The translations under genes and the position numbers were made by a program. Source: Catajapyx aquilonaris (taxonomy: Eukaryota). Taken from it: 64,000 nt of DNA. Every line of letters starts with the position of its first letter. The first letter of the stretch is position 1. The notes below the pieces were generated by a model. The model was not told where the DNA came from. It made no database searches and saw only the letters and a program-made list of their open reading frames with translations. The stretch spans positions 124,001 through 188,000 of the forward strand of contig KZ538001.1 in NCBI GenBank assembly GCA_000934665.2. Direction: 5' to 3'. This document shows, piece after piece, positions 28,701 through 54,505 of this stretch.

Positions 28701-29510
28701 CAATTTATGACTCTTTAGGAAAAAAAAAGCTGTCCGAGCCTGAATTTATAGGCAAACGTGCTCTCGGAATAACAAGCGAGAAAAACATGTAATTAGGGGA
28801 TTTAGATGCGAGCCCTCATTTGGGAAGACGCGATTCATCAACCGGGGCCCCCCAGTTTTGCAATGCAAGCGCAGTAGAGGTGGGCGGTGACACTAGGTCA
28901 CTTTCATTGTTGCATCACACTGAGAAAATTTGAAGTCGAAAAGGAGGTCGTGTCCGAGCAAAAAGGCTAGAGGGTTGACTTGGCTGGCTGGCTGGCTGGC
29001 TCTCTGTCTGTGTCCGTTGGGGCGCAGTTGGTATCGGGCCCATTCGTTCCCTGGCGCCGCTAGTCTGAAGGCTAGCGACATTATCTAAGCCGGTGTGCAA
29101 AGTTCTCTCCGCCGAGCCGCTCATTTATTTGGATGGAATGAACTCGGGCGCTGGTGTATCGGAGGGGCCCTTCTTCGGCATTCCAAGCGCGAGCTAGCTG
29201 CCTGCCTGCCTGGCTTGCCTTACTTTCTTCCCTATCTCCGCCAAGCCTTCGGGAAACCAACACTGGCCCTGCAGCTCCACTTCATCTGTCTTCCAGCTCA
29301 CCCATTTATTTCTCTTCCTTCCTTCCGTCCTGCCTTTCATCCTTCCCTCTGTACTCGGAACAGATTAGTTGCGGGCTCAGTTGGAAAGTCGGCTTCCAAA
29401 ACCCGTGGGACTGCTGGCCTTGAGATGAACCAACAATACTTGGGACTCGTAGGATTATTGCAATTTGAGAGTATTAAAACTGGACTGAATATCTTTTGTA
29501 TTGCTTTCAG

Positions 29511-29690
29511 GTTACGAGCGAGACATTCCTGGCTACCCACGCTACACCATGCTGGGCGACCCAACCAACGGAGAGCACCACTTGCGCATCTTGAATGTGA
29601 GCCTGAAGGACGATGGCGAATATCAGTGTCAAGTGGGACCGGCACGATACAACAAGGCTATTCGCGCCGACGCCCGCCTCTTCGTCTTGG
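29511..29690 (+). CDS. sns: nephrin/sns exon: C-terminal half of Ig1 (GYERDIPGYPRY...DDGEYQCQVGP...ARLFVL)
   Basis: ttgctttcAG acceptor, GTAAGT donor, phase 1/1, Ig F-strand motif D-x-G-x-Y-x-C. Confidence 0.92.
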
Positions 29691-32600: not shown

Positions 32601-35600
32601 TAGATTTTTTTATGAAATACTAGTTCTATTAATAGAGTGTTTCATACTGTATGCTCTGGGTCGCCGCGCAATACTGTAACTAGCAAAAGTGGGAGAACTG
32701 CATGGAACAACATTCAAGCTAGATGACTCGGACCGTTTAGTCAGTGATATGAAAATAAGTAAGCTAGTGGGCGTTAGTTGGGTCGAGGGCCTTCCTCCTC
32801 GGGTGTTTCATTCTGGCCAGGCGCCGAGATGGGCGTTGCGACGGGCACAAACACTATGAATTATGGGCGGGGCAGGTCAGGGGTAATGGATGCACAGCCC
32901 AGCAGACTCGGGATAATGGATGTACGTTCTCCTGCCGCTTGTAACCCCGCCATATTTACTTTATCTGATTATCTGCCGTTATTGGGGGCCGTGAAGCAGA
33001 AGACCCAACTTCACTTGGCCCAATTTTCGGCGAGCGGCCTCCATAAAAAATCCCCGAGAGCCTGAACGAGATAAAAGCCATCGAACGTCAGCTTGTATGC
33101 AACTATGCAGTCCGGTGTCAAATTCAAAATTGGGGTAAAGACCAGACCAGCCCTCTGACACTCCTATTCCAGCCTTATGCAGACCTCCGTGAGCTTCTTC
33201 CTGGTGTGGCGATCCTGGCGGAAACGGCCAACATTGAGCAAGTGCAACTTGCTGCGATGTTTGGCTAGGAGAGTGAGGAAAGAGCGCGACCGAGCAGAAG
33301 TGATTGGACTCAATCGACGACGAGCCTTCCGACAATCTAAAGCGATGAGAGCGAGCGTCATCCCTAGGGCGACTTGAGGCGGTGCTGGCGAAAAAATAGA
33401 GAAGCTAGTTGCATGATTCTCGTGCATGACGGAGATAAAAGGCAGGCCCCGCATGGAAAATGATGATTTCCATCCGCAGTTGATTCTGCTGCCTCATCCA
33501 CTTGAGGACCCCCTCCTTGAAATTGCACCACAAAGACAAGCCAGGCGACATTCCTACCGCATCGCATCGACCTTAGGCTCGTTTCGCCCCCTCCTTACAT
33601 TTTTGTACACCAGTTTTGTCCTAGAAGTCGGCGTATAAAAAACGAGAGAGGAAAAAAGAAAAAGGATGCTGAGGAGGAACATTGTGCCGTTGAATGTGAA
33701 ATGTAATTCCCTCGCGGTATCCATGTTGTGCAAGGTACCGCTGGTGTGTAGAGTGTGAAGGTGGAGAAAAGCGAGAGTTGTGCAGTGAAACCAATCCCTA
33801 AAGCTCCTTCATCCAAAACAACACTGCCAACTGCCTCTCGTTTTCCTCCCTACGGAGAGCCCAAATTTGTCTCTGCCGGGAGTCTTCGTTTCCCCCCGCA
33901 GACTTTTGTAAATATTGCTTCAGTTTTGGTCGATGTGAATGGAGGCGAGCAAGTGTTTCTCTTACTGTTCGTTAGGCTGCCGCCTCTGGGAGGGGAGACA
34001 ACGAGCTTCTTTTTCCCCCTCCACCATCTACTGCTCACTACTGGGGCGTACTATTTGCACAATATTATTGCTGGCACAGGAAATATCAGTGAAACTATAC
34101 CTTCAGCTTTAACTGACTATACTGATTAGGTCATCTCTTCAGACTCATTTAGGGTCGTGCCTGTAGTCTAGCCTCGTCTCCGGCTATCTCCCGACTGACT
34201 GCAACTTCAAGCATTCCCACCATGTCCCTCTCTAGACACCTCCGCCATCTAGTATAGGCTGTCACAATACTTAACTGTTTCAGCATCTTTCCAGGGGGCG
34301 TGGCGTACCTAACATGATGCGTGCTAAACCACGCCCTCCTGGCAAGATTGCGGGGCGTCGAAAATGTGGCCCTTAGCTAACTATAGTCCGCAGAGGGACG
34401 GGGGGGTTGTACGGAATGCTTTGCGCCAAGTGCCGAGCTCTCGTGTGTTGTTCTCGATGACAATGTGCGGTAGCTCCAGGGAACAGCCCGGAAAATATCG
34501 TCAGAGTCGGCTGGAATGTGGGCCATTAGAACGATCGATTCCAGTGTGTGCGTGTGCTACCAGTACACACAAAAAAACCTAGTTTCAATGTTGTAGTGAT
34601 GTGCATGGCAGGGTTGAATTTCCAGAATGCAGGTCAGGAAACAAATCCTGTGTTAAAGGTCCTGTGTAAGAGCCCTTCCTTTTCAGAGCCTCACCCTCCC
34701 ACACTTGTGAGCCATGTCATTCGATAGTGCAGTGATCACGGAGCGTGTCGGTTACTTACTGCACCTGAAAGGCCTGTGGGAGCCATTTCCGCGAGTAGAA
34801 TCCGGGATGATGAGCTCCCTCATCTGCCCCACCACCACCATATCCATTACGGTTCGCCGGCGCCAACTTGGCCCGGGAATTATTTTTCGCAACTCTCTGC
34901 ATCCTATTAGCGCACGGCGGCTTTCTGGAGCATCCCACACCTGCTTCACCACATTTTTTTTGTGTGCATATCCTACCATTTTTTGGGGGCCCGGCCCATT
35001 GCACATGCCTGAAAATCTTACACCCATTTCGAATCTTTGTCACGGCCACCACCGAGTATAGTGCAGCCATTAAGTTTCCTAGGCTCTCGCTTTAGAGGTT
35101 TCTGCCGCAAAACTCCTTTCTTTTTAATGAGATTGTTCCTGGCTAGATCCCCACCCATTTTTTTAAAAGTCAGCCTCACGTATGGACATAACATTATTTC
35201 GATATCACGGACCTATAGGTGGCGCTATTAAATGGAGGCGATGTCAGATCAGAGGCGCGGCTCAGCTTTTCCATGTAATCCTAGCAGCGATGCTGATTTC
35301 ATACACAGGAGATTCCATTTGACCGGGAGCGGAAGGATTTCTGCCTCGAAAATTGCACTGTACAGAAAGCCCGTGTTTAGAATGCATGCGGCGGCTTAAC
35401 TCCGGAATGACGCAATCGTTGTGCTGCAACGCAGTTAAGACACGAAACGTTTTAAGTCGAAATGACATGCCACGGGCAAACAACGTTGAAAGGATGATGC
35501 AGGTAGGCTTAACTGACCTTCAGGTACCTGTTAATCTTGATAATTACGGCTAATAAAAATGCACAGCCGCCAAGTATAGGTTGCAATCCCGGCCTACCGA

Positions 35601-38600
35601 ACTGTGGGGAAATTTTTGCAGGAAAAAATAATTCAGCCGGTGGCAAATTTAATATGAAAAGTGGTTAGGCAGACAAGTGCTTATCCCTGCGTGTGTATAC
35701 ACCTCACATACTTGGCCACTTCTTGGAGCCAAAATTCTTCGGATCTCTTAATTCATTAAACTAGGGGAGATGCGGGGGTATGGGGAGGTAGTAGGCTTTG
35801 CCGAGCGAGCTGTTAACTTTCCCAGCGGTGTGCGATCCTATCAGCGGCTAATTAATTACCGCTCTCGCGCCTAATTCCCGCCCCGAAAATAAATAGATTT
35901 TGAGTAGCATGTATTAGGGGGAAGGCGGTGGAGTGCAAGCGGGGAAAAACTTCAAGAGTGGGAGTAGATGCAAAAGGGGGCCATTTATGGACACCTCCAT
36001 CCCCCATGTAACACACCATGACGCCAGGGGCTCTCTTGCTCAAATTAGGTGACGTTGACCTCCCGTCGCCTTCGTGGGGAAAAAGTGTGACGCAATTTTG
36101 CCTATGGCTGCTGGCTGTAAACGGAATAACGTATCCCGCTAAACAAGGTAACGAAGGGTCGTTTGCATGTCCTGGGGACATTAGTAGGTCGACGCTTACC
36201 GTACAAGTTAAACGGCCACAATATCCGGGCATTTAATTTTTAAGATACTTGGTTGAGTCAACGGTAAATTAAACGTAATTCGGTTTGCATAACCCGCAGC
36301 ATATGACGACAAATGGCATGCTCTAAAACATTTAAAAAGTTTTCAAAATTGAGTTTTGGATGCTGAAATTTTTTTCAGTGTAGTAAGTGTATAGTCGCGA
36401 TTTTTTATGGGTATACATCAGTGAGATTTGTTGATGATAAAAATAACGATCGTCCAAAAATACTGTAAGCTGAGATTTTGACTCGGTGTGGCGCGAAAGC
36501 TTTTCCATGAAACCACAGATGAGGATTAGCCGACCGTGCAGGGTAAACCTTGGTTTCGGGTAAAATTTTAATCAATTTGGCATAACCTTCAGTAATAATT
36601 ATGATAACGTGTTCGCTATCTATGATATACATATAGAAAATTTTGATATACTGTAAAATGCAATTCTAGAGCAGGTAAAATATATAATAGTGATTTTTTC
36701 AAAAGTTGTTCAATAATGAGAGAACCCGATATTGAAATTCGGATTCTTCTGTGGGAGCGACCGGGATGCAAGCATCATTTGGATGTACAGTGGGTTTGAC
36801 GTGTATGGCATCGATTTACTTCGATCGTTGGTCACAGCAGAACAGGGAGAGAAGCTTTTTTTGTTCTGGTTTCCCGTTACAGGTATCCGAAAGCGCTGAA
36901 AATAATGTTGATGCACCACTGACAAGGAGTATTACAGGTACCGCATTGGCAATAGGTAGTGGCCACCGGTATTGGGAGTCACAATTAGTTTTAATGAGCC
37001 GCACAAAGCATTTCGGGCTGAAATGTGAAATACCACAGCACAAGGATACTAATTGCTTAATTAGGATGACGCAACGGGATGGGTGGAACTAATGCTTTTG
37101 CGAGTGTGCAGATTTTTGCTACACATTTTCCTGTGGGATGCAGATAGATTATTATGCGTGCAGTGTATCATTACAGGATGGGTCAAAATGAGTCAAAAAC
37201 TTGGTTACGTTTATGAATACATGATTACCGTTGAAACGACACAATTTGTCCATCCATCCAGTCTGTCGAAATGTTTGACAACATTGGCGGTTAGCTTTCA
37301 CATGTGCCGTAATGTAAATTCTTCAGGTTGCTTGCCGCGTGGAAATGTTCGAATGGACTTGAGTTTTGGGAGGGTTTGGGTTCAGTAACGTGGATGCTGG
37401 AGTCGGCTGGAGCACATCTGGCGAGCGACGGCCACAGCTGGCCGACACCGATTAATATGTCGTCAGGGTCATCCTTTTCCCCCAGCCTTCCGGCGCTCTC
37501 TGGCTGGCAGTCAAATGCGGTCGATTTATCAAGCCCATTAGTAGGCGCCTGCTGCCACGCATTCAAAACGCCGACGCCAACTAACCACATTGAAGGAACA
37601 CATACTGCTTTCTGTACCTTACCCAACATTCCCCCCCCCCCACCCCTAGCCATGAAAAAGAGCAGGCAATTTCAAAGAACAATGCGGTTCCATGTTTCAC
37701 CTTCCACGGCTGTTGGCGGATGTCGTAACAAGAAGCGGAAATCAGCTACCTTTTATGTGGTCCCCTCCGCGATTAACTCCTATCCGTGATTAAGGGCATG
37801 ATTAATCGGTCCTACCGGGGAAGGGAAATGAAGGGTTCCCCTGTGGTATCACCTGTTGCGAAAAAGGGAGTGCCTGCTCGATACTATTTTTTTCAGTCAT
37901 TCCGGGGGAAATGTATCCACATTTTATCTGTCCCCCTGGGGGCCTGAAGCTTCTATCTTTCATCCACGAGCTGAATATCTGGTCTGCAAAAATAAGCATA
38001 TGGATATGCTGGCCCACGCTTGTTTCCGAGGACTTTTCGTGACCACAATCCATGTAGGATGAGAAAGGGGCCATTTTTGCGGGGCATCGAAGAAATATTT
38101 TACGCCTAGATTAGATAAGAGAGGTGTGCAGTGTTTCAACTCTGCAGGGTTTTTCACGTGGGAGTAGTTCATACGTGTCTTTTGTGCGGCTCAGCCGGAA
38201 CAGGCCACGATAATCTTGGGTCAAACTCCTGACGTTTGGAGCCGGGAATAATTATCGATATCAAGTGTTTTTCCTCGGGATGTGACCGGAAGAGAAATGT
38301 CTAGACCAGTACTGGGCCTTTTTGCCAAGATATTCCGGCGTGACCAGTCCGAAAACGTAACGGAGACGATTTGTTACGACGTGTACGTCCGGTCCAGCTT
38401 TTGTTCTTGGTTTCTGCTGCAAGCTCCAGGAAAAGTCTTGGACTTGTCCGGAGATGTGTGACGGCCCCGTTTCTCTTCAGCGTCCCGGACAGCAAGATCC
38501 CTTTGCTCCCACTAATCTTGTCCGGTTCAACTTTGCCGTTGGCAGTCGTTTTTTAGCCTTTCATTGTTGCCGGGCCTGCCTAGAGAGAGAGAAAAAAACG

Positions 38601-41600
38601 AGGTGCACACCGTTAGCGAAAGAGACGCCCGTGTTGGCGACCTTATTTCGAAAGTATGTAGGGTTAAAGAGGAGACGGAGCGCGAAAACAATGACATTTG
38701 CGCATGATGAATCTTTTGTTGACCTGCTGGAGCGAAAGGAAGTGTGGAGACTTTTCCCTAACCCCCTACCTACCCCCCTTTACCCAACAACCTTGGCAAA
38801 CACATCCTCCATCACGGCGCCTCCTCTACTTGGAGCTGTAAACCCCTTTGCGCCGCTTGAAGCAACGAAGCCATTAAAGCTGTGATCTTGGAAATTGCAA
38901 GTCTATTTCCTGTGGGATCTTAATGCCGCTTCGCTAAGCTTTGCGACAAAAATTGCGGAAAGAAAAAGACGTGCGGAGGTGGCTGTGAGGGTGAGTTTTA
39001 ATGTTTCCGGAGCGATTATTTCCATCCCTTCCCCTCAACTTGATCTATCATGTCGTCCGGAAAGGATTACCGTTTATCGGCGTCTGTGACAACGCCGCTT
39101 GAAATATCACTTTTAATATTCTGGGACCGGAGCCGGGATGCTGCAGGCTGCATGTGAAGGGGGAGGAAGCAATGGAAAGTATTCATGGGAGAAGGCTGGC
39201 TTAGCCCGTTTCCTCCGTCTTTGACCCCGGCACAAAGGTGATTTTTGGACAAAGGTGCTAGGTGTGTCCCCTCCAGCGCTTGAGTTTCCGGGGCCAGTGT
39301 GGCTTGGAGGAAAGAAGCCTAGTTAGGAAGTTGTGTGTGACTTGAGCAGCGCCATGCATCCCGGGCGCCATCGATTTTGGCTCAATTTCAGGCGGGGAGT
39401 AGGGGGAGGGATGTGGAGGGAGGGAAAACCGCGTCGTGAGTCCGGGTTTTCTCCTGTCCGTTTCCCCTCTTCCCGCATGCAGCAGCAGCATTGACGCTAT
39501 GCTGTGTGCTATGCTATCAGCAGTCCGGAGAACCTCTTTGGCCTGCTCACTCTAGTGGAAGAGATTGGCCAGCAGCGGTGCTCGGTGCCTTATCAGCTCG
39601 GGCCTGCCTGCCTGCCGGTCTGCCTGGGCTTATCGGAGGTGGACAAGGCACCTCGACTCGTGTTCCGCGCCATCAGCCTCCATGGGTGGGGATGTTTGCT
39701 CGCTCCACCTGCACTTTTAGGCGGATACTGCCAACTTGACTGGCGTACGTCAAAACGACAACCGCCTGTCGCAGCCCGATGCAGCCAAAAACTTACGATA
39801 GGGTCATTCACACTGCCTACACCAGCACTATTCCTCCAGAGATATTTTCTAGACGTTCAGTCAATGTTGAATGTGCCGCACTGGGCAGTTCATCCTGCCA
39901 GTTTGACTTCCCGTTGCACAGAGGAGACGCTTGGGTGGCTCTCAAGTGGTAGGATAATGCTCTGGTAGTTCCGAGTTTATCCTGCGAGTTAGACTGGCCG
40001 GTCAGCAGAAGAGGCGCGAGGTTGCTCTGCAGTGTCAGGATGAGTTGTCAGATGCAAATGGAACCCGAAATACGCTATACCCACGTTGGTGGTAGGAAAA
40101 TTATGAAAACCTCACGTGGCCTTGCAGACTTTTCTTGGCCGGACTATATGAGCGTAACTAATTCGTACAGGTAAAGAAGTGTGAAAGTATGGCCTGTCCG
40201 CATCTATTTTTTGAGGCCAGGTGAATCCCGCGTGTAATTCATCTTGCGGTCGCAATCATTAGTCATAAACGAAATGAAGCTGAAAGCAGCAAGTTTGAGT
40301 AATTTGGCTGTCGTGCACAGTTGATGCCGACTTCATTAGTTGGAACATGCCGTGGACTCCTGGAACATGCATTTGAATCGTTTGGCGGCGATTCTGCGTT
40401 ATTTATGAGAGTGGCGAGTGGCCGACGTAGAAACATGCCTTCCATGTACACGTGCAATAAGGCGAGCGGCGGAATATGGGCCTCCAGGGCAGATCCAGCA
40501 ATAAATTACCGGCTTGGATCAACACAATTCCTTTTTCCGTGTTTGAGCACGGCGAAGCGGGGGAAAGCCCTACACATGCAAATGAGGCATTAACGGCCGT
40601 TATGATTGATTGGGCTCTCTGGCATCGCCAGACCGTTTTCATGATTGTCGATCTCAGAATTGACTCTCAAGCCTTCGATGAATAGCTTCTGCACAGCGTC
40701 GCGCTCGTGCCCAAAATCTCTCCGTGGTTCGGGAGCAAAACCCATTAATTAGCGCCCTTCCCGTTGGCTTACTTTTTGCGGTTTTTGGCTTCACAGGGTG
40801 TCTCCGCATCTCCTGCTGCAACAGCATTGTGCCGACCGCATATTGAAACATTTCCGCAGAGCACATTTAGGAGCAAATAGCAATCGATGTGAGCCACCTT
40901 AACAAAATACGAGCTAGGTTTGCATAATGCATTCAGGGAGGGTCATTTACGACAGTGTTTGTCGCAAGCGACACTTTTGCTGCGCCCGAGTAACCGCGAA
41001 GCAAACGACTCTGTTGTCTGTGGCAAGTGTGGGGGGTAGGGCGTACGGGGGACGGGGACAGGGTATCAGTGGTTGTGAGATACTACGAGTGTCAAAATGG
41101 GCCTGCTTGTTAATCCAAATTCCGAATCCGGGCTGCATTTGCCCGGGGGCGGAGCATGTAGGCTATATTGGATAAGCAAGGTAGAGCCGGGAATGATGTA
41201 ATAAAGCAAGCTATTCAGGAAATGGAGGGACAGGTCGGCTCGGCAGCTTTGCGCTCATCCGGATCCGCCGCAGAGGGCCCTCTTAACGTCCCCCTTGATG
41301 CCCACCGGCAGCTTTCCCATTACCCCGGAGCTGGGCCTCCATTATGGAGCTTCTTACAAATAACATGCCAATACCAAACAGGCGCTGCTTCCAACATCCC
41401 ATGCATCTCTGGCAGAGTTTCCGGAGCCCTGCTTCCCGCCAACGCTTCTTTTGCATGAGAATGGAAGAATATTTTGACCAGTAATGCCATGCAGATGCCG
41501 AAAATTGGATTTACACGCCCATAACTCTGGCGGGCTCTCGATTTGCATGACTCGGCCCTCGACTTGGAGGAAGAGTCCAGGAGAAGGAGGCGCAGAGAAG

Positions 41601-44600
41601 GTCCGACGGTATTTCCTCAATAGCCCTGTGCCGCCAGGATGCACCTTTGCACTGGACTCCAATGCAAGCACCACAACTGCCGGCCTTCCCGCCTCCGCCA
41701 CTTTGTCTACCCAATGAAAAATACAGGAGGACAATTTCTCTGTGCCAAATCGCCTCTCGATCGCAGGCTGGGTGGCCCACCACCTGACTCCTGCCAACCC
41801 TCTTCGCCGGAGGGTGTCCGTCACCCTACCTCTTTTCCCGCCCTCTTCTTCATTGCTGATTCTGCAATATTATCCCAGGAAATATAATTATGGTGTAACC
41901 GTTGCAAGCTGGAAGCCATGAGTTTTGGGATAGCGGCGAGAACTGCGGATCGATATGGCGTTATATGAGCTTAGTGTAAAAGGTCTTTCACACTACTGCA
42001 TCAAAGTGGCCATCGGAATGTCACACGCATTGGGGATGAAGTCGAACCACTGGCATTCAATCGTCGGAGATCATTTTTGTTTTATGCAGCAAAAATTTTA
42101 GAATTATATCGGCCTCCAATTTGTAATGTTGCATTTTTAGTACTCCGGCAAAATTCAGGTTATAGCTCGGGCTATATGCTAATAAATATGCCTGTTTCAT
42201 GATCTTGCACCTAACTGCGTAATCCGCATAATGAACGATAACCGAGGTAATCGTGAAATCCACTTAGGTCGACGGTGCTGGGATTGCCCGTCGAAAGCAT
42301 AGTAGACGAGCAAAATAAGCACCTTAATTGCTGCCATAATGTATTTTGGGTGGCCCTGGAAGCGGGATTGTGATGAATGAGTACTCCATCATTCACTTTA
42401 CTTTTAAAATGACTGCTATTCAAACAGTCAATTGTCTTTGTCCATACAGTATGCCTAAGTCGATTCATCCTGTAGTTGCTCTTGACTACAATAAGAGGGC
42501 GTTAAATACAATATTTATATGCATTTTCCCTATAGTCATGATGAACCACCTTTTTTTGTCCAAGATATGCCACATATCCTGCAACGCACAAAAAATCAGA
42601 GAAAAGTCAGGATTTATACTTTCTAAAGAAACTATTGTAATCGTAAATTACTTGCAGCGACGAGTAATTCCCATGAGGAATACCTAAGTATATCCGCAGG
42701 GGGATTAAACCATATTCTGATGAATTGGAAGATGGAGGACTCGGATCGTAATTATTTTCAAGGAAACATGATACCGCGGTTGTAGTGCTACTTACGTTTT
42801 CTTGTTTAATGAATATTATTTTGTAATGCGATTCCACTAGACTATAGCTGGGCCAAGTTGAATATTTTCCATTGGAAATTACACACGAGAAAAAGTATAG
42901 TTTAGCTCATAGTTTACAAAAGGAATGAATTTCTATTAACCTCAGAGGTCACCCAGATGGTGGATAAAATGATTGTCCTTTTCAAAGATGGAGGCCAATA
43001 AGGAATTTTCAGTTGGAGACCCAATCATTTCTTAAGCCTATCGATCCACAAGTTCTATACGTCTATCACGAAGCTTTAAGTTCCCGCCTTATACGCTCCA
43101 GGCCACTGAACTATAGACGTACAGTACAAGGTATCTCCGGATTCCCATTTTGTAGGTAGATCTGACCCTTTCTGAGAGTCTCTCCATATTACGATGAACA
43201 CGGACACCAACCCGACATTTTTCACCGATCTGGCAAGGAATTGTTCCGTTAGGGCCCAACAATATGTAACCGAATTCCTGGGCCGCGTTATTTTCAAGAC
43301 GAGCAAACAAGATGCATGGGCTAGACTTTGAAGATGAGCAAACAAGATGCAAAGGCGCTCTGAAGAAGGAATGAGGTATTATCCGAGTGCTGGAGTGGCT
43401 GCTGTATCGACCTAACCGCTTGAGGGGAGGATGTTTGTGCAAGGGACACTGTTTTTCTTCAAGAAGGGCACAGAAAGAAGGGAAGGTCGGCGGTTAGAAT
43501 GCCGAGAAGCCGCTTTCTCTCAGTTGCCTTTGCGCCTGCCTGCCAGCCAGCCCTCTTTGAAAGTGAGTGAATCAACGTCGGCTGTGTCGCACATTCGGAA
43601 GGGGGAAAGGAACCCAGAGCATCTCCCCGCCGGATATGTTTGCCCATTGCTTGCCATCCCTCTCACCTGCCATACTGCCTGCTCTTATTGGATTTCGGAA
43701 ATTTTCAGAAAATGCCGTTTTATTGACACCCAGCTAATGCCTGGTCGACACAACCGAAATTTAAGGAGGGAAATGAAAGTTGGCAAACTTTGGGCGAGGC
43801 CATTTGACAACTTTTCCGTCCAACTCTGCTCAGCATGGCATAAAGCATGTATAAAGTGGCGGCGGGACGTGTTCCGCACTGGTATACACTGTACAGCAAA
43901 CCTAGCCGAGTTGGACAACTTTTCCTGGCTGTGCAGGACAAGCATTGTGCGCCTGCCCCCTCCACATGTGTTTTCTCCCGAGGGCAAGTATAAGTTGATC
44001 CGGTTAACCGCAAGCAGAAAGTTGCTCTGCGGGAGGCTGAGGATGCAACGAGGAATGTGGAGCATCCGCTGCCCCTCCGCAGCAAGCAGACCCTCTCAAG
44101 AAAAGGGGCTCGTGTAAACGGAGGGGGCCAAAAGCTAGGTGTGTTTTCGGAAACAGTGGCCCAAACTATGCGGACGGACGGGAGTCCTCTCCGGAATTCG
44201 GCCGGGTATGATAGCGGGACTGTACCGGCCATGTTTGTAAGAATTGTGGGAGGTGGTAGGACGGGGGGTGTCCGGAGGGGCCAAGCAACGGCCGACGGCG
44301 TCGTTGGCCCTGGCCCAAGAGAGCTGTGGCTTTTCTGTCCTGGCAGCGGCCAACTTTCGCCTCTCTCTCCCAATCCACCATTTGCAAGGCAAAGAATTTA
44401 TTGTGAGCGGCGGTGGTAAGAGGGAGGCGGGGGGAGGGGGCGGTACCCCCTCCTCTTTCACTGGGGTAATGGAGGCTAATTTAGTGACGTCCGCTCCGAG
44501 CGGCTACCGCTTAAAGTTTCATCTCCGAGGAGTGCAATTAGACGAATTTGGAGCTAATTCGGAAACGGTAGCGACACTCGCGCCGTATTTTGTCTGCCGG

Positions 44601-44904
44601 GGACGTTTAGTGCGCTCATGCACAATTGATGCTGCCGCCTGAATGGAAGGGCAGTGGTGTTGTCCGAGAAGAGTGCTGCTGGGGTTGTTGTCTGTTTTTA
44701 TTCTTTGCTCTTGTGAACACCTCAGTCAGCCGGGAAGCATTTGTTTGCTGGCGTCCTTCACAAGTCTCGTGGAAGAAAGCCATGTCAATTGACCAGCTGT
44801 GTACACTGTGGGTCCTCTTTATGCTTGGGATGGGCATGTTCATCTTGATGTTCTTTCCCCTCTCATAATGCCAAAAGCAACGTATACACTGCGATGCCGT
44901 CAGC

Positions 44905-44961
<57 letters not shown>

Positions 44962-47900
44962 GATAGAATCACGATGGTTATTTTATCGTTGATAGGGAAT
45001 AATTGATCTACTGGCGCAACTCTCGTGCCCATCTGCAGATCCCCAAATGGTGTGCAGGCCTGCTCGTGATGTAAAAGCTGGATTTGTTGAATGGGTTGCC
45101 ATTATGAAGGAGCTCACCAATCATAGGATTTTACCAGAACAGTTTTGCAGCTCAGTGGTGGAAAAACCCATCCACAAACCCATCTTTCTTCAGTCGTCTG
45201 GCTCTGTGTTCACCTGTAATGTTAATCACTTCTTTCACTCCAAATCCAACCGCAATACCAAGTCGATATTGTTCAGATGTTAAGTTGGGAATTAAATCTG
45301 AGCAGGTCGCCTATGGTAGGCTACTGTTAAGCCTATTGAGAGAGTGCAATAAGTAGCCTACACGTAGTAAATAGAAAAATACTGTGCTCCCACTGTGCCA
45401 AGTAATTCCCGGAGATTAGGTTCTATTCCATGAAAGTGCAGCAAAAATTCTTTTCCTTGCAGTACCACCTTCATCAATAGAGATTATGGATCATGCTCGG
45501 GGATCACAGATAAGCATCAAAGAATCTGAGCAACTAGAACTTCAGTGTCGTGCAAGAAACGCCAAGCCACCAGCCACCATCATGTGGTACCGCAACAATG
45601 TGGAACTCAAACTAGGTGAGTATTACCATTCTCAAGGAACACTAACAGTTTTCTAACATACTGTGCGTGCTCCTTGCAGACACACGAGAAGACCGAACTA
45701 CAGAACACGAGGGTATGGAGGACGGGAAACGAGTGACCAAGTATGACTCTCACAGCAAAATCACTTTCCAACCCACTGCCAGTGATGATGGGTCACTCTA
45801 TGCATGTGAAGCACGCCATCCTGCACTGTCTATCCCTGACAGAGTTGCCATCCAGCTCAGTGTAAAACGTGAGTAACACTCTATGTGACAATAATTACTA
45901 TGTACAGAATGGTGGGATTTATTTTCTGTTTCTCTACAGATCCCCCAGGTCCACCTCACATTGAAGGTTACACAGAAGATGAAGTAGTACGAGTGGGGCT
46001 TCCCATCTCCCTAGTATGCATTTCTCGAGGAGGTAACCCATTGGCAGAACTGGTGTGGTTCAAAAACGATGTCAAAATCGACTCCTCCTACACCACTTCT
46101 ATTCGGGAATCTCGCAATGACTACACGTTCACAGTGGATACCAGTGACAACAATGCACGCTACCGATGTGAAGCTTCCAACCCCATGAGTCGTGCACCAA
46201 TGAAAGCTGAAGTGAAACTGACTGTACAATGTAAGTAACTATGCCTGAATAAGAACTTGCACTTTTCAAAGGGTATGATTTAAAATATACATGTCGGTTC
46301 ACAGTCGCTCCAAAAGAGATCAGAATCAGTGGCCCCACTGAAGCAAAAGTAGGAGATACAGTAGCCTTGCACTGCAACACATCCAACAGTAATCCTCCAG
46401 CAGTTATCACGTGGTTTAAGGATGGTCTTCCAGTACGCCCATACACCAATCGCACTGTTGCTGTTGCTGATGGTGGGTGGATAACGTCCTCCAACCTTAC
46501 TGTGGAGATTCAAGAAGATGACCGCAACTTGACCATCACCTGCCAGGCAGTGAACCAGTACTTGGGGGAATCCAAAGTTGCCGGGCATATGATTAAAATA
46601 ATTCGTAAGTAACTCCAAATTATATTCTTACAAGAACAGGTGCATAGTTAGGAAAGAGTAGGCCTTACTGGCATGCGGGAAGCAGCAGGGTGAGTGGTGG
46701 CTGGGGGCAGCTTGGCTGTGTCGCAAAGGCAAGGATTGATTTTTTGGATTTTGGAAGGGGTATGGTGTACCAACCTAACCTAACCAAGCCTAACCTTCCT
46801 GCCTTGTGGATACAGAGCTATCTTCAGCCATACACACCTATCTTCAGCAGATACATGCCTATCCTTGATCCTTGCCTTTGCGACACAGCCCGCTGCCCCC
46901 ACAACTACTACCCTCCCGCATGCCAGTAAGGCCAACTCTATCCCATAGTTATTGCCAGCATATACATGAAATCCACTAAGTCCAAAAAATCAGTTTTCTG
47001 ATAGTCAAAGATTTGACCTTGTACTTGTTTACATGCTAGTGAAGGCAGAAAATCCCGGTGTTGCTGGCTAATTATTAATCTTAGGACTAAAATCCAAATG
47101 GACTTCACCAGATGACAGAGCTTTAAAAATGCTACCTAGTGATGTAAATAACTCAAAACCACCGAAATTGGCCTTTTTGGATTTCACTTGCTTGCTTAAT
47201 ATGATTATATATCATACTCTCCACCCCACCGGGTATTCCATAATGCAACTTGCTCACAGCACCTTCCCCCTTGCTATGTCATCTGGTCACTTACTCACTT
47301 GAGGTGGCTGAGGCCAATGCATAACAGATTTCCATCTTTCCTAAGATACCTCCTCTTAGGATTTTCAAAGGAAAACCTCTCCCAGACTCAAACCACAATA
47401 GTGCACATCAGGCCTGGATGATGTGCTTTTGTCTGCAACAAAAATTAGCACCAAACACACTGGCATAAACTCTCATTGGTTTCTGGTACTTGAATTTCTG
47501 GTATGAAATGACAGAATCAAATTCAGTGTGAATAAATTAGATTACACAGAAATGGCAGTCAATCATACATAGTTGAGTTATACAGGGTGTAAGTCAGGGC
47601 TATTCAACTGGCGGACTGCGACGCTATACAGGACTGTTTGAAATAGCATGAAAAATTACAAATTCATGATTTTTTTGGAAAAAGTGCTACCAATTTCATC
47701 AAATACCCATTCAAATCGCCCACATTCAGCTAAGCTCGTGTGACCTTGAACCCCCCCCCCCCCCCCCCANNNNNNNNNNNNNNNNNNNNNNNNNNNNNNN
47801 NNNNNNNNNNNNNNNNNNNNNNNNNNNNNNNNNNNNNNNNNNNNNNNNNNNNNNNNNNNNNNNNNNNNNNNNNNNNNNNNNNNNNNNNNNNNNNNNNNNN

Positions 47901-50900
47901 NNNNNNNNNNNNNNNNNNNNNNNNNNNNNNNNNNNNNNNNNNNNNNNNNNNNNNNNNNNNNNNNNNNGGGGGGGGTCTGGACCTTCAATGGCCCAGGAAA
48001 GGGAAATACTGGACCTTGTCATAAACTAGTTGAATAGCCCTGGTGTAAGTTATATGAATTCATCTGCAGGAAAAAAAGTAGGCACCAATTTATTGATGTG
48101 TGCAGGAGGAAACTGGTTTTGAGGGATCCAGTTGAATGCTTCTTGCGATTAGTACAGTATGTATACTATTGGGTTCAAATACTTTTGGCCACTTTATCAT
48201 GGTCTTGACGCAACCCTTCGCACAGACTCCACATTAAGGAGGTGTGTGTGTGTGTGAAGGGTTGCTTCAAGACCAGGATAAAGTGGCCAAATGTATTTGA
48301 ACCTGATAGTGCATATCATAAGTAGGTGATACCATAACTACTTACAGAACCTCCTGGTCCACCCATGGTATATGGTTTTGGATCCAACCTGGTTGCTGGT
48401 CGCTTGCAGCGCATCACATGCATTGCTGCTGGTGGCAATCCAGTTGCCAGCCTTGCATGGTTCAAAGGCAACAAAAAGGTAATTGTAGATATTATTGATT
48501 AATTGCAACAATTGGATTAACAATTTTTGTACCCACAGCTCAACTCTGTCTACAGTACAAATGGCAACTTGGCTTCATCAGAATTAGCTATTGTTGCCAA
48601 TATGTCAGACAATGGAGCTGAATATCGATGTGAAGCAACCAACAAGGCAACAAAGTCACCACTCACCAAAACTGTCACTCTAAGCGTGCTATGTAAGTCC
48701 CATGAAGGGTGCATAAAATATATTCCTGCATATTACAAGTTGTTCTGACATTTTGTGATGTTTTTCATTTTTTAGTCCCTCCGGCAATGGTAAAGATTCG
48801 CAAACGCCCTCGCAAGTTGAAAGAAGGAGAGAAGGCATGGCTAATATGTGAATCAAGTTCAAGCAATCCAGCAGCACGCTTGACCTGGTGGCATGATGGA
48901 CTACCACTTCAGGGTCACAACAATGGCTCTCGGGATGGTGTGTATGGAGGCCAACAAACTGTAAACACACTTGAATTGGATGTGACAGCAGAGTTGGATG
49001 GTGCTGTATACACCTGCCAAGCTACCAATGAAGCCCTGCGGCAGAGTGTACATGATGCAATTGCTCTGGAAGTTCTCTGTAAGTATATGTGTAAGCATGC
49101 CATTCCATAATACAGTATTTGAATTTGCACCTCTTCCTGTAGTTAAGCCGCAGTTCTTGGAGGCACCTTCAGCAAAGAGAGACATAACTGAAGGAGAGTC
49201 AGCAGTCATCAACCTGGAAGCACGTGCAAATCCATCTGAAATATCTTACACGTGGACTCAGGATGGGACACCCATTCCCAGTAGTGCAGAAGCTGGGTCA
49301 GACCGGCATATAATTGCTTCTGGTCCACTTCTGAATGTGACAAGCGTGCGCAGAGAAGACGCTGGCACCTACATATGTGAAGCTGTCAATGCAGAGGGTT
49401 CATCCGTTACTACTGTTCAGCTCAATGTGCAGTGTAAGTTCGAGTACTCTTAAAATAAGGTTATTGCATGACTGTTGTGCAATGATAATATGTTACAGAT
49501 CCACCACGTATAACATCATTGGAGCGCTGGGTTGTGGTTGGTGTAGGCGAAGATGTCCACATAGAATGTCAAATGGATGCTAACCCTCTGGAGGAAGGGA
49601 TGGTGCGATGGGAGCGTGAAGGCTTTGACATAGCAGCCCGCACACGCCGATCCTATAAGCATCAAAGAGCATATCTGACAGTAGCAGAAGTGCAGCATGA
49701 GGACACTGGCCCTTTTGATTGCATCATTAATAATGGAATTGGTGAAGAAGCTCGAGGCACTGTGGTACTCATCGTAAAACGTAAGTCATCAAGTCTGTAT
49801 GTGAAATCCAACGTAATTCTATTGTATTGGTATTCACAGAGAAACCTCAAATTGATACCTCACCTCAAATGGCCAAGGCAGCCAGCGACCAGGGAGAAAC
49901 AGCTCGTTTGTCATGTCGAGCAAAAGGTTCACCCAACATCACTTTTGCCTGGTCGAGGGAAGGTGCTACCATTGGAACCCAGATGACTGAGAAGTATGAA
50001 GTTCAAGTGCAACAGGTATATACACATTTCAGCAACATTTTTATACCCTGCTTGTACTTGGATTGCATGGCATTTTATGATCACAATCACAACAAAATCA
50101 TATACAATTACAGGTGGACTTTATAACTTGGGAATCAACACTGTTGGTCAAAACAGTTCGCTCAGTGGATTACGGTTACTATGAGTGTGTGGCTCATAAT
50201 GAAATGGGCTTTGGTACATCTCGTGTTCTTCTGAATGTGACATCACGTCCAGACCCTCCATTCTTTGTCAAAGTACTAAATGTGAGCCATGATGCTGTGA
50301 GATTGTCTTGGACCCCTGGTTTTGATGGTGGCTTGCAGCAGTCCTTCAGAGTGCGCTTCCGTGAAGAAGGAGCAAGTGGCTACCGATATGCAGATGTGCA
50401 ACCACCAAATGCCACCAGTTATGTTGTTGGGGGACTTAGTCCAGCAACACAGTACTCATTCCATGTTATGGCTCTGAATGGAATAGGGGAGGGCAACTAC
50501 ACCAGAGAAATAGTGAAAGCAACCACCTCCAGTGAGTATTCTCAATAAACTTGCATGGCTGCTTAATATAATTCTTCTTTTGATGCATGATTATAATAGC
50601 AGAAACCAACTTATTGCTTCTCATGGGATAAGGTGACACACTAACTGCATGGGTAACGGTTGACATTTCTTCTTAGGTGAGGCCCCTCCTACAGCTACCT
50701 CCACTTCTGATGTAGACTATCAGCCTGGCCAGATACCCAAGCTCCTAATCATAACTATCACCATAGTGGGGACTGCCCTTCTTGTGCTCAATGTAGTCTT
50801 GATTGCCTTCTTCGTGCGCAAGCGCTCCAAGAAACGCATGACAGGTGAGTGGACAAACATTTATGTTGTTTTTTTTGCCCTCCTGGACGTGTAGGTGAGG

Positions 50901-52412
50901 TACCTCTGGGTGACCGAGAGAGGCGGATGTCAGAAGCAATGGGGAACAAGGGGGAGATTCCCAGAATTGTCATAATTTCGGTCTCAGTTGTGGGCTCCTT
51001 CTTGTTAATCCTGAATGTGATCCTAGTCTGCTGCTTCATCCGACGGAAGAAGAGGAAGGCTGAGGGTAGGACAGAATGACCATTGTATCCCTAGTTTTAA
51101 GTGTTTGGGGTAGTAATGCACCTTGTTTAGGAGGGAATCATCAATAACCAGATATCATTTTTGCAGCGGCAAGTGACCAGGGTAGCAGCAAATCAGCCAC
51201 CATGGAAATGTATGCCCCAAGCAGCTACAATGAGACGGTGACAGGCGAAACACTCAGCTCTATTTCTGAGAAGAGTGAAAGCTACTCCAACAATGGCAGC
51301 AATGAGGATTACATAGTCAGTAATGTTGAAGTCTCTTTGTACATGCAATGTTGGATCCTTGCTGTTTTTTTTTGAAGTGACAAATGATTCAGTCATGTGA
51401 ATGGCAGAAAGGCGGTCCCATGGTGTAACGGTAGCACTCTGGGCTTCCTAGTCCAGCAGTCCGAGTTCGAGTCTCGGTGGGGTTTGCCATCCATGTGTGA
51501 TAGATTGGTGTTTCCTATGTAGCCTAACAGAGAAAATGGGGTGAGGGAGGCAGCAGGTATTACAACATCTGGAAATGTCCTGCATGCTTTTGAAGAAATT
51601 AAAAAGCATGTAATTATTTGTTTCAGTTGCTACTCTGAAATTGAAAGTGTACTCCCATTACAGGATGATGGAACAAAGCCAGCTGCAGCCAGCACTTACC
51701 TGATTGACCAGATGGAACCTCCAGTGCAATACCCATACCATCCGACAGATCCTTCATCATCACGTCAAAATACTCTCACCAGACACAAGGCCAACAACAT
51801 GAATGTGGAGGATGACAGCTATGCTGATGCCCTCCGACGAAATGCCTACAACCAAACTTTGGGTAATGTTTTTGCAATACTGTGGCAAAACTAGTTGGAG
51901 CAACAAATATCAATCATATCACTTTCAATATGGGGTAAAATTGTTCATATTTGGGTTATGATAATATTTCAATGTATTTCTTTCTAGGAGAAAAAGTGAC
52001 ATATGGCAAGAGCACCACACCCAGACCGTCCAGTCGTGCTGCTGCCAGTCCTGATACCTACTACAACATTGCTCCAGACTCCCGTTATGTGCCGTACCCA
52101 CCTCCTGGATTTGGTCCTCCTGTGGGCAATGGCTCCATCCACCACCACCATCACCACCAAAACATCCCACCCACCAACGGGACCCTTCCTCGCAACAGTG
52201 GCAGCAACTCAGGGGGCCAGCCCGCCCAGAATGGACCTGTTGTGGTAGTGGGCTCTCCACCTCCCAGTGTCCGGTTGGGGGGATCCAGCTCTTCTCCTGT
52301 GCGGACAGCCGTTCAGGTACCACCGCTGCTGTCCACCTTCAACCCCAACCCCACCCCCAGCCCCACTAACATGGTGGAGGCAGGCTACGAAAACGAAGGT
52401 CACCTTGTGTGA
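29511..52412 (+). CDS. sns: Nephrin-family IgSF cell-adhesion receptor (sticks-and-stones/hibris/SYG-2/NPHS1-like), multi-exon, 5'-partial
   Basis: Exons joined at GT-AG sites keep one frame: 3809 nt with TM exon A, plus 1 nt from an upstream exon. Architecture is 9 Ig + FN3 + TM. Cytoplasmic SKSATMEMYAPSSYNETVTGETLSS and C-terminal GHLV match what I recall of Sns/nephrin. sns versus hibris orthology was not tested by phylogeny. Confidence 0.93.
44905..44960. repeat. (TTA)n microsatellite
   Basis: Seen directly. Confidence 0.95.
45463..45615 (+). CDS. sns: nephrin/sns exon: Ig2 N-half (VPPSSIEI...LQCRARNAKPPATIMWYRNNVELKL)
   Basis: ttttccttgcAG acceptor, GTGAGT donor; translated by hand because it is absent from the ORF track. 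Confidence 0.93.
45680..45868 (+). CDS. sns: nephrin/sns exon: Ig2 C-half (DTREDR...DDGSLYACEARHPAL...LSVK)
   Basis: ccttgcAG acceptor, GTGAGT donor; within ORF 45667..45876. Confidence 0.93.
45940..46230 (+). CDS. sns: nephrin/sns exon: Ig3 (HPPGPPHIEGY...CISRGGNPLAELVW...DNNARYRCEASN...LTVQ)
   Basis: ctctacAG acceptor, GTAAGT donor; within ORF 45885..46238. Confidence 0.95.
46305..46604 (+). CDS. sns: nephrin/sns exon: Ig4 (FAPKEIRISGP...CNTSNSNPPAVITW...TCQAVN...IKII)
   Basis: ttcacAG acceptor, GTAAGT donor; overlaps ORF 46367..46612. Confidence 0.94.
46651..46943. mobile_element. MITE with long GG-terminated TIRs and an 8-bp TSD (Mutator-, Merlin- or hAT-like; superfamily uncertain)
   Basis: TIRs ggaaagagtaggccttactggcatgcggga / tcccgcatgccagtaaggccaactctatcc; TSD catagtta at 46643-46650 and 46944-46951; internal CCTAA repeats. 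Confidence 0.85.
47595..48042. mobile_element. hAT (Charlie-like) non-autonomous element spanning an assembly gap
   Basis: TIRs cagggctattcaact / agttgaatagccctg; 8-bp TSD gtgtaagt (central TA) at 47587-47594 and 48043-48050. Confidence 0.85.
47770..47967. other. Assembly gap (198 N)
   Basis: Run of N flanked by poly-C on the left and poly-G on the right. Confidence 0.99.
48164..48311. mobile_element. Palindromic Tc1-like MITE
   Basis: About 55-nt arms actattgggttcaaatacttttggccactttatcatggtcttgacgcaacccttc / gaagggttgcttcaagaccaggataaagtggccaaatgtatttgaacctgatagt. Confidence 0.75.
48348..48478 (+). CDS. sns: nephrin/sns exon: Ig5 N-half (QPPGPPMVYG...ITCIAAGGNPVASLAWFKGNKK)
   Basis: cttacAG acceptor, AAG|GTAATT donor; translated by hand. 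Confidence 0.93.
48539..48692 (+). CDS. sns: nephrin/sns exon: Ig5 C-half (LNSVYST...DNGAEYRCEATN...LSVL)
   Basis: cccacAG acceptor, GTAAGT donor; within ORF 48527..48748. Confidence 0.94.
48776..49078 (+). CDS. sns: nephrin/sns exon: Ig6 (FPPAMVKI...CESSSSNPAARLTWW...DGAVYTCQATN...LEVL)
   Basis: tttttAG acceptor, GTAAGT donor; within ORF 48709..49110. Confidence 0.95.
49143..49433 (+). CDS. sns: nephrin/sns exon: Ig7, the 'spacer'-type domain lacking the first canonical Cys (FKPQF...NLEARANP...DAGTYICEAVN...LNVQ)
   Basis: cttcctgtAG acceptor, GTAAGT donor; within ORF 48998..49453. Confidence 0.94.
49499..49780 (+). CDS. sns: nephrin/sns exon: Ig8 (YPPRIT...IECQMDANP...DTGPFDCIINNGIG...LIVK)
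   Basis: gttacAG acceptor, GTAAGT donor; overlaps ORF 49519..49986. Confidence 0.94.
49840..50015 (+). CDS. sns: nephrin/sns exon: Ig9 N-half (QKPQIDTSPQMAKAAS...CRAKGSPNITFAW...QVQQ)
   Basis: ttcacAG acceptor, CAG|GTATAT donor; within ORF 49827..50126. Confidence 0.93.
50114..50531 (+). CDS. sns: nephrin/sns exon: Ig9 C-half plus fibronectin type III domain (DYGYYECVAHN...WTPGFDGG...LSPATQY...ATTS)
   Basis: ttacAG acceptor, GTGAGT donor; ORF 50114..50548; FN3 hallmarks W-x-P-G-F-D-G-G and L-x-P-x-T-x-Y. Confidence 0.95.
50677..50844 (+). CDS. sns: Alternative transmembrane exon A (SEAPPTATSTSDVDYQPGQIPKLLIITITIVGTALLVLNVVLIAFFVRKRSKKRMT)
   Basis: CACTAAC branch site at 50639-50645, tttcttcttAG acceptor, CAG|GTGAGT donor; 168 nt, phase 1/1; hydrophobic helix followed by a basic stop-transfer cluster; missed by the ORF track. 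Confidence 0.9.
50895..51065 (+). CDS. sns: Alternative transmembrane exon B (SEVPLGDRERRMSEAMGNKGEIPRIVIISVSVVGSFLLILNVILVCCFIRRKKRKAE)
   Basis: T-rich tract then gtgtAG acceptor, AGG|GTAGGA donor; 171 nt, phase 1/1; clear paralogue of exon A; within ORF 50849..51079. Confidence 0.88.
51167..51315 (+). CDS. sns: nephrin/sns cytoplasmic exon 1 (AASDQGSSKSATMEMYAPSSYNETVTGETLSSISEKSESYSNNGSNEDYI)
   Basis: tttttgcAG acceptor; the GTCAGT donor was chosen because it keeps frame with the next exon. Confidence 0.88.
51414..51485 (+). pseudogene. tRNA-Gln-derived pseudogene or SINE head inside an intron
   Basis: ggtcccatggtgtaacggtagcactctgg...tccagcagtccgagttcgagtctcggtggg follows eukaryotic tRNA-Gln. 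A and B boxes are present, but the anticodon loop is 8 nt (cttcctag) and the acceptor stem has three G-T pairs. Confidence 0.75.
51664..51862 (+). CDS. sns: nephrin/sns cytoplasmic exon 2 (DDGTKPAAASTYLIDQ...SYADALRRNAYNQTL)
   Basis: ccattacAG acceptor, GTAATG donor; within ORF 51541..51894. Confidence 0.88.
51988..52412 (+). CDS. sns: nephrin/sns terminal coding exon (GEKVTYG...YYNIAP...HHHHHH...YENEGHLV*)
   Basis: tttctttctAG acceptor; within ORF 51951..52412; ends in the PDZ-type motif GHLV. Confidence 0.93.
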
Positions 52413-53819: not shown

Positions 53820-54505
53820 TTTAAAACATTTCACAATTGTGTTTCTCTGAACCTGCGCAATTGGGATTGGTGGTCATGCTCTGTTCTAAAGCCGGCTCCA
53901 CACCGGCTTTTTTTCTCATGTGGAAAATTAATGTCCTGTTGCTAGCAGTTGCTAGAAAATGAGGCAGTGAGGAGCACTTCTCTGATTTAATTCATGACGT
54001 CAACGCGGACTTGAAAATTTAAACCTACAGTATTTCTATGTATCAATGCAAGTCACCCTCTCCCCATTGGTGCCTCCCTCTGTGCATGCTCAGTACCTTC
54101 CTGTTGGCCACACTTTTTCAGCGTCAGTCCGCCGAGACTGCTCCTGCTGGCAGGGTGCGGCCACCCCCCAACAGGATTTTCTCTAATGCTGGGTTGTGAA
54201 CCTAACTGAACCCTTGCTCCGTGAACCCGATAACATCGGAGCTACTCTGGAGCAGTAGAGCCAGGTCCGTAGTTTGGCTGGGAGCTTGCCAGCTTGCTCT
54301 GGAGCATGGCTCAGGCCAGCGCCTCCGGAGTTGAACCCGGTTCCGGAGGGGAGTTCGGAGGGGTTCAGAGCTTGGTTAGGTCCAACATACCAACGCAACG
54401 GGGAGAGAGGCAGAAAAACCGCTGGATTTACTCCAGCGTATGCATCATGTTTTCATGGTGCCAGAATGACATTTCCAAGCACCCGCGATACAGGGTGTAC
54501 CGCAA

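What the first reader, a model, noticed from the sequence alone, without database searches (positions are those of the whole stretch)
50895..51065. The two TM isoforms differ in stalk chemistry: furin-type RERR and a Cys-Cys pair in B, mucin-like stalk in A
Seen: the exon B extracellular stalk reads LGD-RERR-MSE and its TM ends in VCCF. The exon A stalk reads APPTATSTS, with no dibasic site and no Cys. Known: R-X-K/R-R is the proprotein-convertase consensus, juxtamembrane cysteines are common palmitoylation sites, and S/T/P-rich stalks are often O-glycosylated. Inference: exon choice could switch between a stable anchored adhesion receptor (A) and a cleavable, lipid-modified form (B).
Basis: inference. 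Interest (0 to 1): 0.72.

Follow-up and report, generated by a model that had tools for sequence, protein, structure and literature searches.

The report
Ancient anchor switch, incidental furin motif
An arthropod nephrin (Sns) gene has two alternative membrane-anchor exons that are conserved from crustaceans to flies, but the furin-like motif and the cysteine pair in one of them are not conserved, so a furin-driven shedding switch is unlikely, and the lasting difference is likely a sugar-coated stalk versus a short helical one.

Summary
The motifs are real. Exon B (50895-51065) has RERR at 50915-50926 and Cys-Cys at 51029-51034. Exon A (50677-50844) has a Ser/Thr/Pro-rich stalk and no Cys. The gene is nephrin/Sns (9 Ig + FN3). 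A and B are an old duplicated pair, annotated from Artemia and Daphnia to Drosophila, and form two groups (SH-aLRT 98). The scan noted this pair before in another genome (e1-7512715).

None of 43 other B lineages has R-X-K/R-R in the stalk, and Glu at P3 and P3' disfavours cleavage by human furin. Cys-Cys does not mark B: it is in 23 of 38 other A lineages and 1 of 43 other B lineages, and fly B has no Cys. The oddity here is that exon A lost the ancestral Cys, so only B could be lipid-modified in this species. The Ser/Thr/Pro-rich A stalk is conserved (15 of 15 pairs).

Limits: no close relative was available (best identity 52%), and only the A-spliced form was seen, in one run. Verdict: a new member of a known isoform pair; furin switch unlikely.

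The parts
29510..50015 (+). Upstream exons of the same gene, encoding Ig domains 1 (3' half) to 9 (5' half); the 5' end of the gene was not mapped
   Evidence: tblastn with orthologues; Pfam Ig hits on 10 of 11 exon pieces; spliced joints in run X1
49639..49650 (+). RTRR, a second furin-type consensus in the shared Ig8 exon; present in both isoforms and inside a folded domain; serves as a control
50114..50531 (+). Shared exon: end of Ig9 plus the FN3 domain
   Evidence: Pfam fn3 E 3.5e-14; donor at 50531 joined to 50677 in a contig of run X1
50677..50844 (+). Alternative anchor exon A: Ser/Thr/Pro-rich stalk, transmembrane helix, basic tail; no Cys
   Evidence: spliced in on both sides with no mismatch in run X1; groups with orthologous A exons, SH-aLRT 98
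50808..50810 (+). Phe codon (TTC) at the position where 4 of 4 reptile nephrins with an anchor have Cys; this is the only Cys-free A anchor among 39 lineages
50845..50894 (+). 50-nt spacer intron between A and B; shortest of the 12 introns measured; only branch-point-like word has its A 19 nt into the intron (steric block to A-B joining inferred)
50895..51065 (+). Alternative anchor exon B: acidic/amphipathic stalk, transmembrane helix, Cys-Cys, basic tail
   Evidence: (67% identity to unnamed orthologue P0183); no contig of run X1 covers it
50915..50926 (+). RERR; matches the furin consensus but is not conserved; sits in a stretch that reads ERERM or ERERV in several orthologues
51029..51034 (+). 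Cys-Cys at the inner end of helix B; second Cys is the widely kept one (15 of 26 aligned orthologues), first Cys is in 0 of 26
51167..51315 (+). First shared cytoplasmic exon with the Sns-type EMYAPSSY motif
   Evidence: 222 homologues, up to 90% identity; one match in the own genome
51664..52412 (+). Last two cytoplasmic exons (51664-51862, 51988-52412), ending in EGHLV-stop; tail has no Cys

Best explanation
Exons A and B are an old duplicated pair of membrane-anchor exons in an arthropod nephrin/Sns gene, likely used one at a time, and their conserved difference is a Ser/Thr/Pro-rich stalk in A (predicted O-glycosylated and extended) against an acidic, likely helical stalk in B, which likely changes where the receptor is sorted and how far it stands from the membrane rather than whether furin cuts it. 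Shown: the two exons, their phases, A-only splicing in one run, two separate exon groups across pancrustaceans, and the composition contrast. Inferred: a steric block to A-B joining by the 50-nt spacer, O-glycosylation of A, a helix in B, and a sorting role by analogy with Dscam1 exon 17. RERR is most likely an incidental variant of an ERER-hydrophobic stretch. The Cys contrast is a lineage-level change: A lost the ancestral Cys and B gained a neighbour. That leaves B as the only isoform that could be S-acylated in this species, the reverse of flies.
For: A and B exons from 15 lineages plus this window separate into two groups with one label change, SH-aLRT 98; scorpion, spider and centipede single anchors fall with B. 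Ser/Thr/Pro is higher in A in 15 of 15 pairs, large hydrophobics higher in B in 15 of 15, and Asp/Glu higher in B in 13 of 15. R-X-K/R-R is in 0 of 43 other B and 0 of 38 other A lineages; Cys-Cys is in 23 of 38 A and 1 of 43 B lineages. A-only splicing is seen in run X1. A-only and B-only proteins from the same lineage exist for thrips, Daphnia, Ischnura, Schistocerca, Allacma and several flies. AlphaFold puts a helix on residues 7-12 of exon B, at low confidence (pLDDT 50-56). Dscam1 exons 17.1 and 17.2 send the protein to dendrites or axons (PMC2566808, passages).
Against: No close relative was found (best 52% identity over 700 columns), so a furin site conserved only within this lineage cannot be excluded. 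Exon B was not seen spliced in this species. 18 database proteins from 14 lineages carry A and B in tandem, and others skip both, so exclusivity may be leaky, or those are gene-prediction artefacts. The lineage counts are not independent: many are flies. The exon tree has only 50 columns and was a quick search. Cloeon has RR at the same place, without the P4 Arg. Ala at P4' is listed as favourable for furin. The sorting role has no direct evidence.
Confidence: 0.62

Rival explanations
1. One reading: B is cut by a proprotein convertase at RERR and releases the ectodomain, while A stays anchored. This could only be a lineage-specific innovation.
For: Exact consensus match 12 residues before the helix, in a stalk outside any folded domain. 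Chance per stalk is about 1-2.4%. P4' Ala is favourable.
Against: 0 of 43 other B lineages have it. The P1 column has Arg in 1 of 26. Glu sits at P3 and P3'. Stray consensus sites are in 8 of 27 orthologous ectodomains and in this gene's shared Ig8. The motif falls in a weakly predicted helix.
Confidence: 0.08
2. Shedding does differ, but through the conserved stalks: O-glycans on A shield it from metalloprotease sheddases and the bare B stalk is cut more often, with no role for furin.
For: Ser/Thr is higher in A in 14 of 15 pairs. Precedent: the VLDLR splice variant lacking O-glycosylation is shed faster, by a metalloprotease (PMC5038150, abstract).
Against: No shedding data for Sns isoforms were found in the searches made. 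Fly B stalks also hold some Ser/Thr (0.11-0.38). Models that skip both exons stay in frame and would give a soluble form by splicing alone.
Confidence: 0.15
3. The switch that matters is S-acylation: one isoform is acylated and the other is not, and which exon keeps the cysteines has flipped between lineages.
For: Here A has no Cys and B has two, with a Cys-free tail. Flies have Cys-Cys in A and none in B; Allacma has one in A and none in B. None of the 15 pairs has both anchors Cys-free.
Against: 5 of 15 pairs have equal Cys counts, and 27 of 43 B and 38 of 38 other A lineages keep a Cys. This pattern also fits plain drift once one copy keeps the site. Acylation of Sns or nephrin was not shown in anything read.
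Confidence: 0.1
4. Exon B is no longer used in this species and its differences are decay.
For: The one contig over the region skips B. The window's B differs from all orthologues at the P1 column and at the first Cys column.
Against: B has an open frame, canonical splice sites and the right phases, 64-67% identity to a distant orthologue, and a short end branch of 0.18.
Confidence: 0.05

Closest known systems
Annotated A/B anchor isoforms of pancrustacean nephrin/Sns (e.g. Drosophila rhopaloa X1/X2/X3, Cochliomyia isoforms 1-4, Ischnura X1/X2, Daphnia pulex X3/X4, Artemia X2)
   Same: Same gene, same position after FN3, same order (A then B), and the same stalk contrast.
   Different: Here exon A has no Cys (only case among 39 A lineages), and exon B has RERR (only case among 44 B lineages) and Cys-Cys (shared only with Artemia, where it is shifted). 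D. melanogaster itself was not among the named hits listed.
Drosophila Dscam1 exon 17.1/17.2 (TM1/TM2)
   Same: An Ig-superfamily adhesion receptor with two alternative transmembrane exons; works-like analogue for sorting (PMC2566808, passages).
   Different: Different gene family. Targeting in Dscam maps to the cytoplasmic juxtamembrane region in that paper, whereas the clearest conserved contrast here is extracellular. No sorting difference has been tested for Sns.
VLDLR splice variants I and II
   Same: Splicing sets whether an O-glycosylated region is present, which sets the shedding rate (PMC5038150, abstract).
   Different: Unrelated receptor; the anchor itself is not swapped (recalled); here glycosylation and shedding are untested.
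Furin-processed type I membrane proteins (R-X-K/R-R substrates)
   Same: Exon B matches the four-residue consensus in an extracellular stalk.
   Different: Not conserved in any orthologue examined; Glu at P3 and P3' is unfavourable for human furin (PMC3545927, passages).

Membership tests
Nephrin/Sns/SYG-2 | Nine Ig domains followed by one FN3 domain (PMC10084454, passages) | tested here: met
   Exon pieces give nine Ig units by Pfam and tblastn (Ig1 only as its 3' half; the second half of Ig2 by tblastn only) and one fn3
Nephrin/Sns/SYG-2 | Unstructured tail with a C-terminal PDZ-binding motif | tested here: met
   Tail ends EGHLV-stop, like DGHLV/EGHLV in orthologues; PDZ binding itself not tested
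Nephrin/Sns/SYG-2 | Best homologues are nephrin/Sns proteins | tested here: met
   named hits are nephrin or Sns; falls among pancrustacean Sns in a quick tree (support 81 for the nearest fork, not starred)
Mutually exclusive homologous exons | Tandem homologous exons of like length and the same phases | tested here: met
   168 and 171 nt, phase 1-1, 35% identical
Mutually exclusive homologous exons | Each exon is used alone in mRNA, never both | tested here: inconclusive
   A-only contig here; B not seen here; A-only and B-only proteins elsewhere, but also 18 A+B and several skip-both database models
Furin substrate site | R-X-K/R-R in a lumenal position | tested here: met
   RERR at 50915-50926, before the helix
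Furin substrate site | Conservation of the motif in orthologues | tested here: not met
   0 of 43 other B lineages; no relative closer than 52% was available
Furin substrate site | Permissive flanking residues | tested here: not met
   Glu at P3 and P3' are listed as largely inactivating, Ala at P4' as favourable, for human furin on peptides
Furin substrate site | Cleavage in cells | not testable with these tools
   Needs expression of tagged isoforms
Isoform-B-specific palmitoylation site | Juxtamembrane Cys present in B and absent in A across orthologues | tested here: not met
   A keeps a Cys in 38 of 38 other lineages; B lacks Cys in 16 of 43; true only in this species
Isoform-B-specific palmitoylation site | S-acylation shown biochemically | not testable with these tools
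   Needs acyl-biotin exchange
Mucin-like stalk | Ser/Thr/Pro-rich composition, conserved | tested here: met
   Mean 0.50 in A against 0.24 in B; A higher in 15 of 15 pairs; the stalk is only about 20 residues
Mucin-like stalk | O-glycosylation | not testable with these tools
   No predictor or data available

The most novel reading that the evidence does not exclude
Since early pancrustaceans, Sns has used two anchors as a functional switch: an O-glycosylated extended stalk against a short acidic helix. The switch sets sorting or metalloprotease shedding in different Sns jobs (myoblast fusion, nephrocyte slit diaphragm, synapses), and an acylation difference has been added more than once in opposite directions (B-only here, A-only in flies). 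No paper found in these searches treats the two fly anchors separately, so exon-specific alleles in Drosophila would test this directly.
Probability: 0.3. Interest if true: 0.55.

Novelty: new member of a known kind. Interest (0 to 1): 0.22.

Why it matters
The specific claim, a furin-based shedding switch, fails its conservation test, so the finding as written is ordinary. What survives is useful. Sns is central to myoblast fusion and to the insect filtration diaphragm, and its two anchors have kept distinct stalk chemistry across crustaceans and insects. That points to an isoform-specific role for which these searches found no study, and it can be tested in Drosophila. The cysteine flip between lineages also warns against reading motifs from a single genome.

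Tried and rejected
RNA evidence: no RNA holder was listed; one run of unrecorded kind (X1) held 0.49 of the words. Its contigs skip introns, and none covers exon B at 95% or 80% likeness. This blank is not evidence that B is silent.

Homologue searches: the search with the FN3 exon returned only vertebrate nephrins and receptor phosphatases. The A/B profile search returned 4 proteins. The representative search was crowded by giant multi-Ig proteins; 46 of its 150 listed rows were inspected, and 15 from this search and its cluster look-up entered the count. No close relative of the organism was found, and the careful tree did not finish, so the quick tree was used.

Other checks: AlphaFold on exon B gave only low confidence for the stalk. 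The own-genome searches found no paralogue to compare, though the first look scored only 1-2 candidates.

Literature: searches for Sns anchor isoforms, cleavage or palmitoylation gave nothing on point. 'sns' had 0 occurrences in PMC7954323 and PMC3923563, and 'isoform' had 0 in PMC12489029. The library lacks most subscription papers; the Drosophila mutually exclusive exon catalogue cited and all supplements were not seen and may list sns.

Rejected: Cys-Cys as a mark of B, and RERR as an ancient site.

Full report
OBSERVATION. Exon B spans 50895-51065 (171 nt, AG/GT, phase 1-1) and exon A spans 50677-50844 (168 nt, same phases), with a 50-nt spacer between them. RERR is at 50915-50926 and Cys-Cys at 51029-51034. 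Exon A has the APPTATSTS stalk, no dibasic pair in the stalk and no Cys. The two exon products are 35% identical. In-script models with A, B, both or neither are all open to the stop.

THE GENE. Exon pieces give nine Ig units and one FN3 domain (Pfam hits on 10 of 11 Ig pieces plus fn3; tblastn), and the tail ends in EGHLV. This is the nephrin layout described in PMC10084454 (passages). The first cytoplasmic exon finds 222 proteins, 120 of them listed, and most of the named ones are nephrin or Sns. It has one match in the own genome. A quick tree places the protein among branchiopod and hexapod Sns with weak support (81), and its best identity is 52% over 700 columns. So no close relative was available, which limits the conservation tests below.

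SPLICING. No run on record as RNA was listed; one run of unrecorded kind was. Its contigs skip nine GT-AG introns in this gene. One contig joins the FN3 exon to A and A to the next shared exon, skipping B, with no mismatches. Exon B was not covered, which says nothing about its use elsewhere. The A-B spacer is the shortest of 12 introns measured (50 nt; the others 59-348; two had boundaries off by 1-2 nt). Its only branch-point-like word puts the A 19 nt into the intron, so a steric block to joining A and B is a reasonable inference. An unnamed genomic read-through protein, P0181, implies a spacer of about 51-54 nt in another animal. Against strict exclusivity, 18 database proteins from 14 lineages carry A and B in tandem, and six models skip both (P0099, P0141, P0151, P0158, P0159, P0175). 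These are annotations that I could not verify.

THE PAIR IS OLD. Of 137 proteins had a detectable anchor; the rest were tail fragments, skip-both models, or missed by the filter. I added 15, giving 109 proteins. Anchors were classed by order in two-anchor proteins, and otherwise by HMMs trained on those proteins without the window. They were then grouped by genus or unnamed source: 38 A and 43 B lineages besides the window. A few unnamed rows had small margins (un249 and un290 classed A; un233, un246 and un251 classed B). In a 50-column tree of 15 pairs, the window and 8 single anchors, A and B separate with one change (SH-aLRT 98; 0 of 500 shuffles as low). The scorpion, spider and centipede anchors fall with B, and the scorpion and spider isoforms inspected show only a B-type anchor. 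One duplication before the pancrustacean radiation, with B nearer the ancestral exon, is the simplest reading, though the tree is unrooted. P0181, of unknown lineage, also has both exons.

FURIN. R-X-K/R-R, and even R-X-X-R, is absent from the stalks of all 43 other B lineages and all 38 other A lineages. Several orthologues read ERERM or ERERV here (Artemia, P0181, Ephemera). The window's P1 Arg column has Arg in 1 of 26 aligned rows; that one is Cloeon, which reads HERR and lacks the P4 Arg. The site has Glu at P3 and at P3'. A peptide screen of human furin names both among residues that largely inactivate a multibasic motif, names Ala at P4' as favourable, and states that the motif alone is not enough to predict cleavage (PMC3545927, passages). 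The motif arises in 2.4% of shuffles of this stalk and at about 1% per 22 residues of ectodomain. 9 of 27 orthologues have one somewhere in the scanned region, 8 after removing a hit in a cytoplasmic tail, and this gene has RTRR in the shared Ig8 exon. AlphaFold with a 27-row alignment puts a helix on the RERRMS residues, at low confidence (pLDDT 50-56). The shedding half needs an experiment, and a site limited to this lineage is not excluded.

CYSTEINES. The Cys six residues after the intramembrane Asn is ancestral: it is present in 4 of 4 reptile nephrins that had an anchor, of 6 examined, and in 15 of 26 aligned B-type rows. All 38 other A lineages keep at least one Cys, and 23 have Cys-Cys. 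Among B lineages, 1 of 43 (Artemia, shifted) has Cys-Cys, 27 have at least one Cys, and 16 have none, including all the named flies. So the unusual event here is the loss of Cys from A (TTC at 50808-50810), plus a second Cys in B. With a Cys-free tail, only B could be S-acylated in this species, the reverse of flies. In 15 pairs, A has more Cys in 8, B in 2, and 5 tie; no pair has both anchors Cys-free. Acylation is untested.

WHAT IS CONSERVED. In 15 same-lineage pairs, the last 18 stalk residues (fewer where the exon is short) are richer in Ser/Thr/Pro in A in 15, in Ser/Thr in 14, richer in large hydrophobics in B in 15, and in Asp/Glu in B in 13 (the pairs are related, so the printed p-values overstate the case).

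MECHANISM. Most likely, exon choice swaps an extended, probably O-glycosylated spacer for a short helical one, together with a different helix and basic tail, and this changes sorting or membrane spacing. The analogy is Dscam1 exon 17.1/17.2, which directs the protein to dendrites or axons (PMC2566808, passages). This step is inference (0.62 for the whole reading). Rivals: glycan-controlled metalloprotease shedding, as for VLDLR variants (PMC5038150, abstract), 0.15; a flipped acylation switch, 0.1; lineage-specific furin cleavage, 0.08; decay of B, 0.05.

WHAT IS KNOWN. The isoform pairs are already in public annotations. The scan noted the pair on this stretch twice and in another genome once, where the follow-up called it real but ordinary; my own tests agree. 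I found no paper on the function of the two Sns anchors (search listings only). Word searches inside PMC7954323, PMC3923563, PMC12489029 and PMC12284917 gave nothing on point. The library misses most subscription papers, and no supplements were read. That juxtamembrane cysteines are common acylation sites and that Ser/Thr/Pro-rich stalks are often O-glycosylated is recalled general knowledge, as are the biological roles of Sns beyond the passages.

VERDICT. Observation confirmed. Interpretation partly supported: stalk composition yes, acylation only in this species, furin no. A new member of a known isoform pair; interest 0.22.

Noticed in passing
window 50790-50792 and 51014-51016: An Asn in the middle of both transmembrane helices. 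It is the only invariant column in the 27-row B alignment and is also present in reptile nephrin. A buried polar residue like this often drives helix pairing (recalled), so it may mark a nephrin dimer interface.
   Followed up: partly
window 50531 to 51167: Skipping both anchor exons stays in frame, and six database models from beetles and flies have this form; it would encode a soluble protein with the tail attached.
   Followed up: partly
window 50677-51065: Including both exons also stays in frame; 18 database proteins have two anchors in a row, which would flip the tail to the outside of the cell if real.
   Followed up: partly
P0206 cluster and P0214/P0354: Scorpion and spider nephrin isoforms show only a B-type anchor and vary instead by a short extension after it, which suggests the A exon arose later.
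   Followed up: partly
window 29713-45450: A gap of about 15.7 kb between the Ig1 and Ig2 exons, while most introns of the gene are 59-348 nt.
   Followed up: no
window about 47780-47980: An assembly gap of 200 N inside the gene, in the intron between the Ig4 and Ig5 exons.
   Followed up: no
window about 54470-54680: A short tandem repeat giving repeated peptides in several frames downstream of the gene.
   Followed up: no
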